Source: Giardia intestinalis (taxonomy: Eukaryota). Taken from it: a stretch of 64,000 nucleotides of DNA. The stretch lies in NCBI GenBank assembly GCA_000002435.2, contig CM018793.1; one strand, given 5' to 3'. This document shows, piece after piece, positions 15,001 through 39,000 of this stretch. Made by a program: the position numbers. Numbering within the stretch: position 1 is the stretch's first letter; each line of letters starts with the position of its first letter.

Positions 15001-18000
15001 TGCTTCTTCACCAGACCACTGGCTTGCTGATCAAGGAGATGAAATTGGCAAAGGGGTACACGGAGTTATATACTCCTTCAAGAGTGACTCGAGTCTGGTT
15101 CTGAAGGAGATTCTGAATGATCACGTCTCAACAGCGACCTTTAAAACACTGCTCGAGAGGCTGCGCACGTTTGCTACCCTGAAGCACCCGAACATAGTCG
15201 ATTGTCAGGGCGTTCTTGAAACAGATATCTCTGTGTATCTAAGGATGAAGCGCTATGGGACGTCTCTCGATGCCATCTGCCGCTCATACAGACGAAAAAA
15301 GCAGACGTTCCCACAAAGGTTGATATTTTCAATCATACGACAAGTAGCCATGGGGCTAGCGCATCTTCACAAGTGGACTGGAAGCGCTGCAAATGGAGAC
15401 TCTGTTTCTTCGTTTGTGCACGGAAACTTAAAGCCTACTAACATATTAGCAAATAAGGATGAGTCCGATTTCGTCATATCAGACGCAGGGATATACGGAG
15501 GTGAGTTAGAGGACTTTAGTTCCACCCTTGGCTTAGCGCAGATGTACATGGCTCCTGAAACGCTCCTCCACGAACAATACTTTCCTGAGTCCGATATTTG
15601 GAGCCTAGGGGTCATCCTCTATGAGCTAGCGACTGGAACTAAGATTCCCTTTCTGAAGAGTGACACACCGAAGAACGTTTTTGTGGAGGGTTGGACGCCG
15701 GATTTGAGCGAGGTTAGGGACCCTGTATTCAAAGCTATCCTCGAACACATCTTTACCTTAGATCCACACGCCCGCCTCACTGCCGACGAGCTTGTGGGTC
15801 TTCTCCACGAAAGCATTCCTCCCATTTGTGTCACATATATGTTAACAACGAGGCGTTTGGAACGTGACCTGAGAGAATGCAAGCAACAGATAGACTCGCT
15901 TAGTCGCGATAACCTGGAACTAAGGACTCAGCTAGCTAACTTAGCAACAACAACAGTACCAGTGCATCACACAGTTGTTGGCCCATCTGCTGGGAAGCAA
16001 GAAGTCAAAGCGCAACAGGGACAAGGGAAGCCCCTTTTCCCACCTAAACTAAAATCTACCACACTTACAAAACTAATGGCTGCCGCACGGAGTAATAATG
16101 TTGCCGTCGCTAAACCGTTAATACTTTCCAAGACAGACGTGTGTGCTAAAGATGATCTTGGGATGACGGCTCTTATGCATGCTGCACGGACTCAGAGTCT
16201 TGACGTGGCAAAGCTGCTTGTATGCCTTGAACGAGGCATGCAGGACTATACCGGGAAGACTGCCTTGATCCATGCAGCTATCGATGGGCGGCTAACAATG
16301 GTCAAGTACCTACTTGAGCACGAAAAGACATTGAGTGACGTCCATGGAATAACCGCATTAATGTATGCGGTCATCTATGGCCACAGAAAACTAGTTACCA
16401 TTCTAAAGGACGAGGAGTGCAGATTACAAGACAATGAGGGCCAGACTGCGCTGATGTATGCAGCAGACAACAATAACTGTGGCATCATCAATATCCTAGC
16501 CCAGCATGAAGCTATGGTGAAGGACAACAACGGGCACACAGCCTTTCTGCATGCATTGCTGCGTGGACACAAGGAGGCAGCAACCCTGCTCTTGCAGTAT
16601 GATGATCCAGTAGACGATATTGGCCGCACGGCTCTCATGCGTGCCGTAGACGAAGACAACCTTGATCTTCTACCCTTTCTTATTCCTTTGCAGAAGGGGC
16701 TTAGGACTCTGAGCGAAGAGGCTATAGGCAGTTACTTCGTCACTGGGAGGACTGCACTAATGGGTGCAAGCATATGCAACAATCTGGAGGCAATTAGATT
16801 GCTTGTAGAGCACGAAGCGCAAATTCAAGACTCTAATGGATATACTGCTCTTATGTTTGCCGCCCAAGCCGCCAATTATGAGGCGACGCAGATACTTCTG
16901 CCATATGAGCAGGGGATCAGAAACGCTCAGGGCAAAACGGCGGCTATTCTCGCAGAGGAATGCAACTGTCGCGAAATTATAAACTTAATGAAGCCATACA
17001 GGGAGGAGATTGATAGTTTAAAAGATCATTGACTCTTCGGCTACCTGCGCGCGAATCCCAAGTAGCATTTTTCTACCTCTAGGTCATGCTCCTATGCACT
17101 GGACCAGAGCCTAGGGGGAGCTAACTTACAACATGTACTAAGCACAGATTCTGTACAGAGCATCTGTGTATGATGATTGGCTGTGTAAGAGAGTACAATC
17201 CGAGTGTTTATTATAGAATGATACAATGCGTTCTATATAGAGCTAAGTTAATAGAGTACAGCCCAGCAGCTTCGTCACTTATCAGGAAGGCCTGCGACAT
17301 CACTGATCTTCTCATGATCCCTCATCTATTCCTGCGTCAATACAGTAGGCAACATACTCTAGTGACGGTTGTGTCAAAGATTCATTGACAGTGAGCTCGG
17401 ACACATCGTTAATATGAGTGTAGTCATTGCTGTCTACGCAGACCTTGGAAACGGGGATTCTTGAATCCAGGGAGCTAACAGTCGAAGTCAGTAGCATGGC
17501 AGCGCGGGCGACATTGTCCCTTTGGAGTCCTTCATACTCCTCCACTAGTCCATTAACGAGTAGCTGCATTTCTATTTCATCAGTCCAAGTGCGAGAGATG
17601 TGTGTTGTTGCATTTTGTACAGAAATGGTTCTCGCCACATTCTGGGCTACAGCCTGAGGATACCGGGACTTGCTGTCTAGGAGCATATGCCGAACTGCTC
17701 GGGAAATGGCCAATGGACAATACGCCATGAGTATTTGAAGGCTCAAGGTGTGTACCAAGCTCTGTCCAATCGTCGCTCTGGGATGTGACGTCAGCTGGGT
17801 GTCAAAGTGCTCAGTATGAGGAGAGCACCTATGCAAGTCTTGTACAGATTGTCCTGTAGCTAGACTTTTAATTATAATTGACCGGAGGCAAAGCTCCTTG
17901 AAGGCAGAGGTGTCTCCGTACATGTCTGGAGTACTCAGAGGGGCGAACGAGATGACCTCTCCCGTTGAGAAGTCATAAGCTTCCTCGGCCAGCTGCATCT

Positions 18001-36000: not shown

Positions 36001-39000
36001 CATGAGGAGCTCGCGTTAATATTTGGCCCAAGAGATACGTATCCGTGGAAACCAAGAGATCCAGTACAAGACTCACTTTTGCGATGGCGGCAGGACCCCA
36101 ACCAAGCGCTTCACGGCATATATAAAGAAAGTTGGCCATGTCGCGCCTCGTGAGAAAGGTAGCCGATGCGTTTAGCTCCACATACAGGAGCTCTAAGATT
36201 TCCAAGACATCTGGCAGGCTCTTCTTGGTCCCAATGAGTGTCTGCAGACGCCTGCGAAGGTGTTGAAGCTGCATTACGGAGAGAGCGAACCTGCGCCTTT
36301 ACAAGAGAAATGAAATGTAAATGATTTATTTGGACCGACCGACCTCACGGTTTACTTAGCGGGCTTGACGCTAACTATATACCCTATTGCAACAGTATCG
36401 CTCTCATGACGGAGAATGATACGCCCCAGAGCCTCGTGTCCGGCGTAGCTCTGGACACACACCGGCTTCTGAGTTATAATTTCGCAAATGATTCTAGCCT
36501 TGGAAAGAACGTGTGTAGGCCTACGTACCTTGAGAGGCTCAGTGGACACTATGTACTCGGGCTTCACCTTCCCTGTCTTGAGATCAAGGTCAGCCAAAAT
36601 GGCACGAATCTGGCAGCCCACCTGCTGGAGATTAATGTGTGCAACACAAGAGTAGCCGCTTGTAATGACAAGGTTCTCTGCTGTGGACACTATCAGCAGA
36701 TTGGCCTGAAATCTGTTTGTAACAGATACCGATGGTGATTGGCCGGGAGACGGCTGGGCGCAAATCACCGATCCCTCCGTCAAAAATTCCCATATGTCAT
36801 CCTTCACCTTAATACGCACATTGTCTCCTGCCTTGGCTTGTACAAGCTTGCTCCCCTCTTCTTGTTCGCCCTCAATGTCCAAAATGTCGAAGGCCTTATT
36901 TTCGGGGAGGCAAAGAACGGTATCTCCAATGCTCATTTTCCCCTGCTCAACCTTAACCACAATGAATGCACTGTTCTCCTTATAGTGACCACTGACACAG
37001 GCGCAGAGAGGAGACTTTGTATCACGTTTAGGGACCTTCAGCTCGTCCAGGAGGTCCAGGAATGATGGTCCTGAGTACCACTCAGACAGTTTGGGGTTCA
37101 GCTCCTTGGTTGATATCAGATTCTCGCCCGTGAAGCCCGAGATGGGTAGAAAGAAGATATTCTTGGAAGCGTACCCCACATTCTCGAGGTAGAGCTTCAG
37201 TTGGGAGACGATCGAGTCGTATCTCTTCTTGCAGTACTCCACCGTGATATCGTCCATCTTGTTAATGAGGCAGACAATCTGCTTGATGCCATTAACATAT
37301 GCCAGCAGCGCGTGTTCAGATGTCTGCCCGCCCCGCTCGAAACCACTCTCAAACTCCCCCTTGCGGGCGCTGATCACTAAAATAGCCGTGTCTGCTTGTG
37401 CTGCCCCGGAGATCATGTTGTGAACAAATCCTTTATGGCCTGGCGCGTCTATTATGGTAATTCTACGGCCGTTCGGGGTTAGAAATGATTCCCTGGCGCA
37501 TTCAACAGTCTTACCTTTTTCTCGCTCCTCCTCTGACGTGTCCATCGCGAACGCATACTTCCATGACTCACGGTTGAGGGCCTTGGCCTGCTGCTCCAAT
37601 TTCTCGAGCTGTCTCTTGTCCAGCTTTCCCAAATCTGAGACGAGGTGGCCGCTTATTGTAGACTTCCCCGCGTCAACGTGTCCAATGAATACAATGTTCA
37701 GGTTCTTGCGCTTCTCCTCCTCAACTTGCACCACCTCCTGAGACGACATTGATTTTTTATTTGCGATTTCTTGTGCCTCCTTGAGATGAAAAAGGCGGGC
37801 CAAGGACGACACACACTAGGTATAAGGCCCATGTATCATCGTCTGCGAGTGTTGATAATGGTTAACACTCTGGGGAACCACTGTGGGATCATGAGTCTGC
37901 GTATTTTGGCTATAGATGGTTTGTTGAGGCTGATCGCTAGGCGATACCGCATTTTGAGATTGAAAAACAGTGGAGGGTTGATATGCTGGTTGCACAGCGA
38001 GGGCTGCAATGGCATCCTTGGGCTGCTGTATGAGGGCAGATTCCTGACACGCTTCCTGATAGAGAACAGCCTCCACCTTCATGTTATATGGAAGTTCTAG
38101 AGCGGAAAACAGATTGACCTGTGCAGTGGCTACGTCACGGGTAACTTCAGTACTCACACCAGCAGTCTCGGATGACCAGATGTTTAAGGCGGTTGTCGAC
38201 AAAATCAGCTGCGCGTGCTTCATGGTCTGGAAAAGGTCTGCCCACTGCACATATCGCCGTGCATCGAACCGTGCGCACATCCCTACTAGCTGCCTGTTTG
38301 AGTCCAGGTAGGCTTGCATTGCATCGGACTGCATCCCCACCTGTCCTTTCTTGGTAAGAAGCCGATGGGATCTCTGTGCTGTATTGATGGCGTTGTTTAT
38401 TGCATCTACGGTTGGGCTTATGTCGCTCAAAGCTCCGGCAAGAGCAGCGTACCTGTCAAAGGCTTGCGCCATGATTTCCAGCAACTGGCTTTGACGTTGG
38501 GCTATGGTCTCAATAACCACACGAACTGGCGCAGTCTCTAGAGCAGCTAACCTCTGCATAAAGTCCAGGGACTGCACTGCTATTCCACTAAACCTGCTCC
38601 ACGCCCCATAAATGGCAGCAAAGCATCCTGCACACTGGGCAGTCCCCTCTTTCAGGTTCTTGTAGAATCCCTTTATGCTTGCATATGAATTGAATGCCAT
38701 CCCCCAATTTTGAAACAACGCTGAAATTTTTGATTATGGGCCGCTTTTGCTACTGCCAAAGCGCACTGTGCAGCTCACTAAGAGCTTTGCTCTTCTCCAC
38801 CTGCGCCAAAATTTTAGCTCTGGCCATGATTGCTATGTATAATGCCTCAGCAGTAGAAATACTAAATGTGGCCTTGAGGTGCTCCACAACTCCCCCGAAC
38901 TCCTTGGATTTCAATATTTCTTTTTCCAACTGCTTAATGTACACATCCAATACCTCCGCAGAGCTCATAGTTTCGTTGGGTTCGTATAGCTTAGCAGTTA

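What the first reader, a model, noticed from the sequence alone, without database searches (positions are those of the whole stretch)
17312..36274. Single uninterrupted 18,963-nt ORF encoding a 6320-aa protein with no recognisable domain
This is one of the largest conceivable single-exon genes, in a genome of about 12 Mb. It shows no P-loop, kinase, HECT, BEACH, chorein or zinc-finger signatures, and no obvious internal repeats by eye. It is leucine-rich and helical throughout. It sits directly downstream of eRF3 on the same strand with a 77-bp spacer. Candidate identities are a divergent lipid-transfer or scaffold giant (Vps13/BLTP-like, Ubr4-like) or a lineage-specific cytoskeletal protein.
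Basis: seen in the sequence. Interest (0 to 1): 0.6.

Follow-up and report, generated by a model that had tools for sequence, protein, structure and literature searches.

The report
Giant orphan protein gene in Giardia
The 19-kb open reading frame is a real, transcribed and strongly conserved Giardia gene (GL50803_39938) for a 6320-residue, mostly helical protein that matches no known family; public databases already list it as a hypothetical protein and its function is still unknown.

Summary
**Observation confirmed.** Window 17312-36274, minus strand, is one uninterrupted ATG-to-TGA frame of 6320 codons. It equals Giardia intestinalis WB GL50803_39938 (XP_001708555.1, "hypothetical protein").

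**Real gene, not an assembly chimera.**
- The same frame is found in isolates DH (6317 aa) and P15 (6316 aa), and in more than ten independent read-set assemblies.
- G. muris has a collinear 5826-aa orthologue (25-27% identity).
- dN/dS is 0.06 over the last 407 codons.
- RNA is quantified in published RNA-seq. No protein value is reported in nine proteome comparisons.

**No homology found.** Pfam, PDB sequence and profile searches found nothing. A full HMMER scan of 1.84 billion representatives (C-terminal 1200 aa only) and two metagenome scans found relatives only within Giardia. There is no Walker A motif, no CxxC motif and no internal repeat.

**Structure prediction failed.** Two AlphaFold2 tiles reached only pLDDT 31 and 37.

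**What can be said about the fold.** Hydrophobic periodicity and the weak model secondary structure indicate an alpha-helical, solenoid-like protein. It is unusually hydrophobic and has few charged residues.

**Best guess.** A low-abundance, non-enzymatic helical scaffold. The tested defining domains of Vps13/BLTP and Ubr4 are absent. Interest is moderate.

The parts
17312..36274 (-). Complete CDS of the 6320-aa protein (ATG at 36274-36272, TGA at 17314-17312). It equals GL50803_39938 / XP_001708555.1 / UniProt A8B9T1.
36275..36351 (-). 77-nt spacer between the eRF3 stop and the giant gene's ATG. It contains an A/T-rich stretch (aaataaatcatttacatttcatttc). By inference this is the short Giardia-type promoter/initiator region.
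   Evidence: sequence; promoter role is inference only
34373..36274 (-). aa 1-634: N-terminal region. It is poorly alignable with G. muris and is the most hydrophobic part.
29930..34372 (-). aa 635-2115: first block conserved with G. muris (27% identity, E 8e-126). It holds the motifs FIRLAPYxLLSxNLxxRSYVLRILA (~aa 1063), LIKGxLGVYG (~1316) and AFADExRYxRYF (~1950). Within it, aa 901-1500 lack the alpha-type periodicity.
25256..29929 (-). aa 2116-3673: fast-evolving middle region. BLASTP finds no alignment with G. muris, and it has the lowest identity between assemblages A and E (80-88%).
17324..25255 (-). aa 3674-6317: second block conserved with G. muris (25% identity, E 1e-171). It holds the motifs PTHAxPxxxGIGAGLP (~3880), WRLxRINVF (~4311), YxPTGxMPG (~4764), PLDNAxLIRRL (~4874) and GMPAAAR (~5066).
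23675..24274 (-). aa 4001-4200: the only strongly charged segment (29% D/E/K/R). It is a possible short coiled coil or linker.
   Evidence: coiled-coil reading is inference
19139..19198 (-). aa 5693-5712 (LSMLLGFGFLLFVFAYSIYR): the only very hydrophobic helix-length segment that is also hydrophobic in G. muris. It could be a buried core helix or a membrane-inserting element.
17315..18577 (-). aa 5900-6320: C-terminal region, richer in G/P/N, with the only predicted strands of that tile. It holds the conserved motif PYAVPLRxxLYxDA. dN/dS is 0.062 over the last 407 codons against an assemblage-B-like isolate.

Best explanation
The ORF is a genuine, transcribed, single-copy Giardia gene. It encodes a protein of roughly 700 kDa (estimated from its 6320 residues). 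The protein is largely alpha-helical, non-repetitive, hydrophobic and poor in charged residues, and it has no catalytic signature.

Most likely it works as a low-abundance, non-enzymatic alpha-solenoid-type scaffold or tether. In this reading a long helical superstructure uses its dispersed conserved patches as docking sites for partner proteins or a cellular structure.

**Shown:**
- The gene is real and its frame is intact in independent assemblies and isolates.
- It is under purifying selection, measured over the last 407 codons only.
- It is restricted to Giardia at detectable sequence level.
- Known domains, P-loops, zinc-binding CxxC pairs and internal repeats are absent.
- RNA is present.

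**Inferred:**
- The helical-solenoid architecture rests on periodicity, on low-confidence model secondary structure and on generic solenoid Foldseek hits.
- The scaffold function rests on analogy with other giant helical proteins and on the absence of enzyme motifs.
For: **Real gene**
- one stop in 6321 codons against 349 and 360 in the other two coding-strand frames.
- identical or near-identical 6316-6320-aa frames in WB, DH, P15 and many independent assemblies.
- collinear 5826-aa G. muris orthologue GMRT_10340.
- synteny with the NEK, WD40 and NIF genes is kept in an assemblage-B-like contig. dN/dS is 0.062 with dS 1.45.
- 90.5% identity between A and E assemblages, with only 4 indel events of 2-3 aa in 6320 aa.

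**Expression**
- (PMC8866875 supplements): RNA values of about 8.1-8.6, like the eRF3 neighbour.
- Protein is 'NA' in all nine proteome comparisons, which points to low abundance.

**No enzyme or known family**
- Pfam; PDB phmmer; PDB profiles; no Walker A, no CxxC.

**Helical architecture**
- the hydrophobic-moment spectrum peaks at 100 degrees in both orthologues. The alpha/beta band ratio is 1.36 and 1.43, like the ankyrin and helicase controls. The WD40 control gives 0.82.
- DSSP of both AF2 tiles shows strings of 10-40-residue helices and very few strands.
- the best Foldseek hits are generic solenoids (karyopherins, CRM1, FANCI, DNA-PKcs), at a meaningless TM-score of 0.14 or less.

**Not a polytopic membrane protein**
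- TM-like peaks occur at 2.7 per 1000 aa, against 7.6-9.1 in the ABCA and P-type transporters. They are not conserved in G. muris, with one exception.
Against: - There is no positive evidence for any function, partner or location.
- Both structure models are unusable (mean pLDDT 31 and 37), so 'solenoid' rests on indirect signals.
- No HEAT/ARM/TPR repeat was detected by Pfam or by self-comparison.
- Chou-Fasman propensities do not favour helix over strand.
- aa 901-1500, one of the best-conserved blocks, lacks alpha periodicity. The C-terminal 400 aa may also be a mixed alpha/beta domain. Either could hide a divergent enzymatic or binding domain.
- GRAVY of +0.09 (WB) and +0.14 (G. muris) is odd for a soluble scaffold.
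- The full-library HMMER search covered only aa 5121-6320. The word-index search apparently cannot return proteins over 5000 aa. Distant homologues of the first 5100 residues have therefore not been excluded.
Confidence: 0.5

Rival explanations
1. It is an unrecognisably diverged orthologue of a pan-eukaryotic giant protein. Candidates include a UBR4/BIG-like, huntingtin/Fry-like or TRRAP/DNA-PKcs-like helical giant, or a ciliary central-apparatus giant such as CFAP46/CFAP54. On this view it is not a Giardia invention.
For: - The protein evolves very fast between Giardia species: 25-27% identity, with the middle 1500 aa unalignable. Orthologues in more distant lineages would be invisible to phmmer.
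- Only the C-terminal 1200 aa was searched exhaustively.
- The weak Foldseek lists contain DNA-PKcs, FANCI, karyopherins and central-apparatus chains, but at TM-scores of 0.14 or less.
Against: - No Pfam family was hit at E<=1 in G. intestinalis (whole protein) or in two tiles of the G. muris protein (aa 741-1990 and 4661-5826).
- No PDB chain was hit by three two-species profiles.
- No zinc-binding CxxC motif is present, which argues against UBR4 and other RING/UBR giants. No Walker A motif is present, which argues against dynein, midasin and RNF213.
- The C-terminus (…YCIDAGIDEGS) does not look like a FATC tail (my reading of the sequence), and no FAT or kinase hit was found.
- Elsewhere in this window, Giardia's conserved domains (dynein heavy-chain fragment, ABCA, P-type ATPase) are recognised easily by Pfam.
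Confidence: 0.25
2. It is a bridge-like lipid-transfer protein of the Vps13/BLTP type: a long hydrophobic groove that moves lipids between membranes.
For: - Its size is in the BLTP range.
- It is unusually hydrophobic and low in charge for a protein without conserved TM helices (GRAVY +0.09 and +0.14).
- One conserved hydrophobic helix lies near the C-terminus.
- aa 901-1500 show beta-type rather than alpha-type periodicity.
Against: - No Chorein_N, VPS13, ATG_C, Apt1 or FSA_C hit was found.
- The N-terminus is neither chorein-like nor a TM anchor.
- Overall periodicity is alpha, at 100 degrees, in both species.
- The AF2 tiles contain under 2% strand, although their confidence is very low.
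Confidence: 0.07
3. It is a Giardia-specific structural or cytoskeletal giant, for example a ruler or connector of the ventral disc, median body, funis or cytoplasmic axonemes. This is a special case of the scaffold idea with a defined cellular home.
For: - Detectable orthologues occur only in the two Giardia species.
- It is a huge, non-enzymatic, helical protein.
- Length is conserved almost to the residue within G. duodenalis, as expected if length matters.
Against: - It is not detected in nine whole-cell proteome comparisons, whereas abundant cytoskeletal components are usually seen.
- It is absent from the actin-interactor tables checked.
- It has few charged residues and no heptad-rich coiled coil, apart from perhaps aa 4001-4200.
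- Length differs by about 500 aa between G. intestinalis and G. muris.
- No localisation data were found.
Confidence: 0.15
4. It is a spurious or decaying frame: an annotation artefact, an assembly chimera or a non-translated ORF.
For: - No peptide-level evidence was found in the proteome tables examined.
- There is no known domain.
Against: - log10 P of such a frame arising by chance is -136.
- It is intact in every independent assembly and isolate, and in G. muris.
- dN/dS is 0.06.
- All four indel events between assemblages are of 2-3 residues.
- It is transcribed.
Confidence: 0.02

Closest known systems
Giant alpha-solenoid scaffold proteins (huntingtin, Fry/Tao3, the HEAT cradle of DNA-PKcs/TRRAP, karyopherin-like superhelices)
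   Same: - Very large size.
- Predicted strings of 10-40-residue helices with short loops.
- Alpha-type hydrophobic periodicity.
- No catalytic motifs in the helical part.
- Generic solenoids top the (weak) Foldseek lists.
   Different: - No HEAT/ARM/TPR Pfam hit and no detectable internal repeat.
- About twice the length of most such proteins.
- More hydrophobic and less charged.
- No kinase, FAT or FATC module.
- Homology is not demonstrated. The resemblance is architectural only and rests on low-confidence models.
UBR4 / BIG / Poe (about 5200-aa helical E3 ligase giant)
   Same: Size class, a largely helical build, a single polypeptide without repeats, and low abundance.
   Different: - The UBR box and the C-terminal hemi-RING/E3 domain are zinc-binding Cys/His modules.
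- This protein has no CxxC motif at all and no zf-UBR or E3_UbLigase_R4 hit.
VPS13 / BLTP1-3 / ATG2 bridge-like lipid transfer proteins
   Same: Size, lack of enzymatic motifs, and high overall hydrophobicity.
   Different: - No Chorein_N or other family domain.
- Alpha rather than beta periodicity.
- Almost no predicted strands.
Orphan giant proteins of other parasitic protists (for example the very large apicomplexan proteins surveyed in PMC10993292)
   Same: A lineage-restricted, very large protein of unknown function in a compact parasite genome, many times larger than the other proteins encoded in this window.
   Different: This is a different lineage, with no sequence relationship tested or expected. 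Here the protein has no low-complexity or repeat expansion.

Membership tests
VPS13/BLTP (repeating beta-groove) superfamily | N-terminal Chorein_N domain, or an N-terminal TM anchor in BLTP1/2 | tested here: not met
   Pfam gives no hit at E<=1 on aa 1-2500. The N-terminus, MQLQHLRRRLQTLIGTKKSLPDV…, is neither chorein-like nor hydrophobic.
VPS13/BLTP (repeating beta-groove) superfamily | A long array of amphipathic beta-strands forming a hydrophobic groove | tested here: inconclusive
   The hydrophobic-moment spectrum peaks at 100 degrees (alpha) in both orthologues, and only aa 901-1500 deviate. The AF2 tiles are under 2% strand but have pLDDT 31-37.
VPS13/BLTP (repeating beta-groove) superfamily | C-terminal family modules (VAB, ATG_C, PH-like, Apt1, FSA_C) | tested here: not met
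   No Pfam hit in the G. intestinalis or G. muris C-terminal tiles. No PDB hit with profile A1.
UBR4-type E3 ligase giants | UBR box and C-terminal hemi-RING (zinc-coordinating Cys/His clusters) | tested here: not met
   No CxxC motif anywhere in 6320 aa. No zf-UBR or E3_UbLigase_R4 hit.
AAA+ giants (dynein heavy chain, midasin, RNF213) | Walker A P-loops and AAA modules | tested here: not met
   No [AG]xxxxGK[ST] motif. No AAA or dynein Pfam hit, whereas the dynein fragment in the same window is hit at 1e-82.
PIKK/TRRAP family | FAT domain, PI3/PI4-kinase-like domain and FATC tail at the C-terminus | tested here: not met
   No Pfam hit. No PDB hit by phmmer or profile. The C-terminus …YCIDAGIDEGS lacks a FATC-like tail (sequence; FATC features from general knowledge).
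BEACH and HECT giants | BEACH domain, or a C-terminal HECT domain with a catalytic Cys | tested here: not met
   No Pfam hit at E<=1.
HEAT/ARM/TPR alpha-solenoid repeat proteins (structural class, not a single family) | Tandem helical-hairpin repeats detectable by sequence profile or structure | tested here: inconclusive
   No repeat Pfam hit and no internal repeat. Predicted helix strings and generic solenoid Foldseek hits exist, but at unusable confidence.
Polytopic membrane giants (Piezo-like) | Many conserved transmembrane helices | tested here: not met
   There are 17 KD19>=1.6 peaks (2.7 per 1000 aa, against 7.6-9.1 in the window's transporters). Of the five strongest, only aa ~5693-5712 stays hydrophobic in G. 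muris.

The most novel reading that the evidence does not exclude
The protein founds a protein family, and possibly a fold arrangement, that is truly confined to Giardia or the diplomonads. On this reading it is a hydrophobic helical giant of roughly 700 kDa (estimated from length) whose length is held almost constant within the species complex. It would build, measure or tether a lineage-specific structure such as the ventral disc, funis or cytoplasmic axoneme system, or an unconventional membrane-contact or lipid-handling device. It would have no counterpart in model eukaryotes.
Probability: 0.3. Interest if true: 0.65.

Novelty: new member of a known kind. Interest (0 to 1): 0.4.

Why it matters
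Giardia has one of the most reduced eukaryotic genomes.

- The gene is kept intact, almost without indels, under strong purifying selection across the species complex. It is also retained in G. muris.
- That cost implies an important function, which current sequence and structure methods cannot name.
- Identifying the function would fill a gap in the cell biology of a major human parasite.
- If the protein is lineage-specific and essential, it would be a parasite-specific vulnerability.

The gene model itself is not new: it has been public as a hypothetical protein. The present work adds no positive functional evidence. Its value is as a well-defined target for tagging, knock-down and better structure prediction.

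Tried and rejected
**1. Word-index homology search (search for homologous proteins).**
- A 1200-aa tile, a 400-aa tile and a two-species profile returned only short G. duodenalis fragments. Not even the 6317-aa cluster representative came back.
- The index evidently does not return giant proteins. These negatives say little.

**2. Sequence and profile searches.**
- Pfam found nothing on all of G. intestinalis and on two G. muris tiles.
- PDB phmmer found nothing.
- Three PDB profile searches gave only chance hits with E above 0.5.

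**3. Full HMMER scan of 1.84 billion representatives with aa 5121-6320.**
- All hits were from Giardia.

**4. Two metagenome scans with conserved-motif patterns.**
- Neither found anything.

**5. AlphaFold2 on aa 5121-6320 and aa 881-2080.**
- Only shallow alignments were available. Mean pLDDT was 31.1 and 36.6.
- Foldseek on these models gave TM-scores of 0.14 or less and is not evidence.
- The third fold search was not used, for that reason.

**6. Other sequence analyses.**
- Internal repeats were not found by BLASTP or hhalign.
- Chou-Fasman propensities were uninformative.

**7. Literature.**
- No paper text mentions GL50803_39938 or A8B9T1.
- There was no entry in the supplements of four further proteome, interactome or RNA-seq papers.

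**8. Ideas rejected.**
- Polytopic membrane protein.
- Mobile-element or viral polyprotein: GC matches the flanks, synteny is conserved, and no RT or integrase domain is present.
- Operon-like coupling to eRF3: the window is simply densely packed with genes.

Full report

Yes. The ORF listing reports a single ORF at 17312..36274, 6320 aa, with an ATG start. It lies on the minus strand, which the finding did not say.
- The translation has one terminal stop, and the sequence has no N.
- An in-frame stop lies 9 codons upstream of the ATG, with 8 sense codons between.
- The coding frame has 1 stop. The other two frames of the same strand have 349 and 360.
- 100 shuffles give at most 215 stop-free codons. 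The chance of 6320 stop-free codons at this composition is about 10^-136.
- GC3 is even along the gene, at 0.48-0.55.
- The upstream same-strand ORF (36352..37812) is an EF1A-family GTPase that several sources name eRF3/GSPT1. The spacer is 77 nt.

**2. Identity and integrity**

An exact look-up shows the protein is GL50803_39938 (GL50803_0039938; XP_001708555.1; UniProt A8B9T1). It is a 'hypothetical protein' of Giardia intestinalis WB.
- The identical sequence is on 44 contigs, including a 4.0-Mb chromosome-scale one.
- Isolates DH (6317 aa) and P15 (6316 aa), and more than ten independent Logan assemblies, carry the same frame.
- WB against P15 is 90.5% identical, with only four indel events of 2-3 residues.
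- An assembly chimera is therefore excluded.
- The neighbouring genes fit Giardia: a NEK kinase with ankyrin repeats, VSPs, and an ABCA transporter.

**3. Orthologues**

The word-index search could not return giant proteins. It did not even recover the query's own cluster representative.

The exhaustive HMMER scan of 1.84 billion representatives was run with aa 5121-6320. It found six proteins, all from Giardia.
- Five are short fragments of G. duodenalis lineages.
- One is a full-length protein, P0051. This is G. muris GMRT_10340, 5826 aa, also annotated 'hypothetical'.

BLASTP shows the two proteins are collinear.
- aa 635-2115 align at 27% identity (8e-126).
- aa 3674-6317 align at 25% identity (1e-171).
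- The first 634 and the middle ~1560 residues are too diverged to align.

Short, strongly conserved motifs are scattered along the length. Two metagenome scans seeded with such motifs found nothing.

A 6.5-kb contig of an assemblage-B-like isolate keeps the downstream NEK, WD40 and NIF genes in order. It gives dN/dS = 0.062 (dS 1.45) over the last 407 codons.

The gene is thus under strong purifying selection within the species complex. Yet it diverges fast between species. This also means that orthologues in more distant diplomonads could be undetectable by sequence.

**4. Expression**

No paper text mentions the gene. In the supplementary tables of PMC8866875 the picture is as follows.
- GL50803_39938 has RNA values of about 8.1-8.6 in all samples. 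This is similar to its eRF3 neighbour and above the adjacent NEK gene.
- All nine protein columns read 'NA'.

Four other supplements did not list it. I read this as: transcribed, with a protein that is rare or poorly sampled.

**5. What is it not?**

- Pfam finds no family at E<=1 in three overlapping tiles of the G. intestinalis protein. The same holds for two tiles of the G. muris protein.
- PDB sequence searches and three two-species profile searches give only chance-level hits.
- There is no Walker A motif and not a single CxxC motif. This argues against dynein, midasin and RNF213-type AAA+ giants, and against UBR4 or RING-type ligases.
- No BEACH, HECT, chorein, FAT or kinase module is found.
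- There are no internal repeats by BLASTP or hhalign.
- It is not a polytopic membrane protein. TM-like peaks are as sparse as in soluble controls. Except for aa ~5693-5712, they are not conserved in G. muris.

**6. What does it look like?**

The hydrophobic-moment spectrum peaks at 100 degrees in both orthologues.
- The alpha/beta band ratio is 1.36 for G. intestinalis and 1.43 for G. muris.
- This resembles the ankyrin, helicase and P-type ATPase controls in the same window, and differs from the WD40 control (0.82).
- The exception is aa 901-1500, which is also one of the best-conserved blocks.

Two AlphaFold2 runs failed, with mean pLDDT 31.1 and 36.6. They covered aa 5121-6320 with 7 sequences and aa 881-2080 with 2 sequences.
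- Their DSSP strings are runs of 10-40-residue helices with under 2% strand. This is suggestive only.
- Foldseek on these models returns generic alpha-solenoids (karyopherins, CRM1, FANCI, DNA-PKcs, designed repeat proteins) at TM-scores of 0.14 or less. I do not count this as evidence of a specific fold.

Composition is unusual and shared by both species.
- GRAVY is +0.09 and +0.14, and charged residues make up 18%.
- This is as hydrophobic as the ABCA transporter next door.
- One segment, aa 4001-4200, is highly charged at 29%.

**7. Best explanation and rivals**

The best-supported reading is a real, low-abundance, non-enzymatic giant of mainly alpha-helical, solenoid-like build that acts as a scaffold or tether (confidence about 0.5 for the functional part). 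The dispersed conserved motifs would be interaction patches. The gene's reality is about 0.98.

| Rival | Confidence | Comment |
|---|---|---|
| Unrecognisably diverged orthologue of a pan-eukaryotic giant | 0.25 | Cannot be excluded, given the evolutionary rate and because only the C-terminus was searched exhaustively |
| BLTP/Vps13-type lipid bridge | 0.07 | Hydrophobicity fits; periodicity and missing family domains do not |
| Giardia-specific cytoskeletal ruler or connector | 0.15 | Overlaps the scaffold idea; no localisation data; absence from proteomes argues against an abundant structural role |
| Artefact or untranslated frame | 0.02 | Effectively refuted by conservation and dN/dS |

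**8. Comparison with the known, and novelty**

Architecturally the closest things are giant helical scaffolds, such as huntingtin, Fry, the HEAT cradles of PIKKs, and UBR4.
- Every family-defining feature that could be tested was either absent or inconclusive (see the membership table).
- I therefore do not file it in any family.
- At sequence level it is an orphan family known only from Giardia.
- At the level of 'kind' it is most economically a new member of the class of giant helical scaffold proteins.

The gene model itself is old public knowledge. Its named candidates, Vps13/BLTP and Ubr4, are not supported. 'Largest conceivable single-exon gene' is an overstatement, because Giardia genes are almost all intron-less (general knowledge).

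**9. Verdict**

This is a genuine and intriguing, but already catalogued, giant orphan gene. No mechanism can be shown with the available tools.
- Interest is 0.4.
- The most novel reading not excluded is a truly lineage-specific giant building or tethering a Giardia-specific structure. I give it a probability of about 0.3 and an interest of about 0.65 if true.

Noticed in passing
window 60629-63215 (+): The 769-aa ORF at 60906-63215 encodes only the C-terminal part of a dynein heavy chain (AAA_9, D6, AAA_lid_11). An exact Giardia-type branch-point/3' splice motif, CTAACACACAG, ends at 60639. The dynein frame is open from that point, starting …TEDKEEVIRQANATKARLDLANRLVNGLASEKERW…. The upstream gene is on the other strand. 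This looks like the 3' half of a split intron of a trans-spliced dynein gene. Such genes have been described for Giardia (from memory, not checked here).
   Followed up: partly
window 9766-12114 (+), next to 6347-9655 (+): Two P-type cation ATPase genes sit in tandem. The second, 782 aa, keeps the N-terminal, E1-E2 and C-terminal membrane domains. It has no hit to the Hydrolase or Cation_ATPase (phosphorylation and nucleotide-binding) domains. It may be a degenerate, non-catalytic paralogue.
   Followed up: no
window 36352-37812 (-): Public records annotate the eRF3 gene inconsistently. Names include 'selenocysteine-specific elongation factor', 'G1 to S phase transition protein 1', 'EF1-alpha family' and 'eRF3'. 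Two start choices are used: 465 aa from an ATG, and 483-486 aa from an upstream start.
   Followed up: no
window 18000-36000: The plus strand shows a sustained positive GC skew of +0.07 to +0.15 across the whole giant gene, so its coding strand is G-poor. G is only 14% at codon position 2. The neighbouring long ABCA gene on the same strand has a skew near 0. This probably reflects the Leu/Ser/Thr/Phe-rich, Gly/Glu/Asp-poor composition.
   Followed up: partly
window 54000-62000: GC rises from about 0.47 to 0.53-0.545 over the region that holds two VSP genes, at 55399-56898 and 56969-58672.
   Followed up: no
window 42091-46188 (+) and 37816-38718 (-): Two further ORFs have no Pfam hit. One is 1365 aa, very hydrophilic (GRAVY -0.63) with 27% charged residues. 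The other is 300 aa and lies between eRF3 and the SWIRM-domain gene.
   Followed up: no
tool behaviour: the search for homologous proteins never returned the 6317-aa cluster representative, nor the 5826-aa G. muris protein, even for 100%-identical queries. Its negatives are therefore uninformative for proteins above about 5000 aa.
   Followed up: partly
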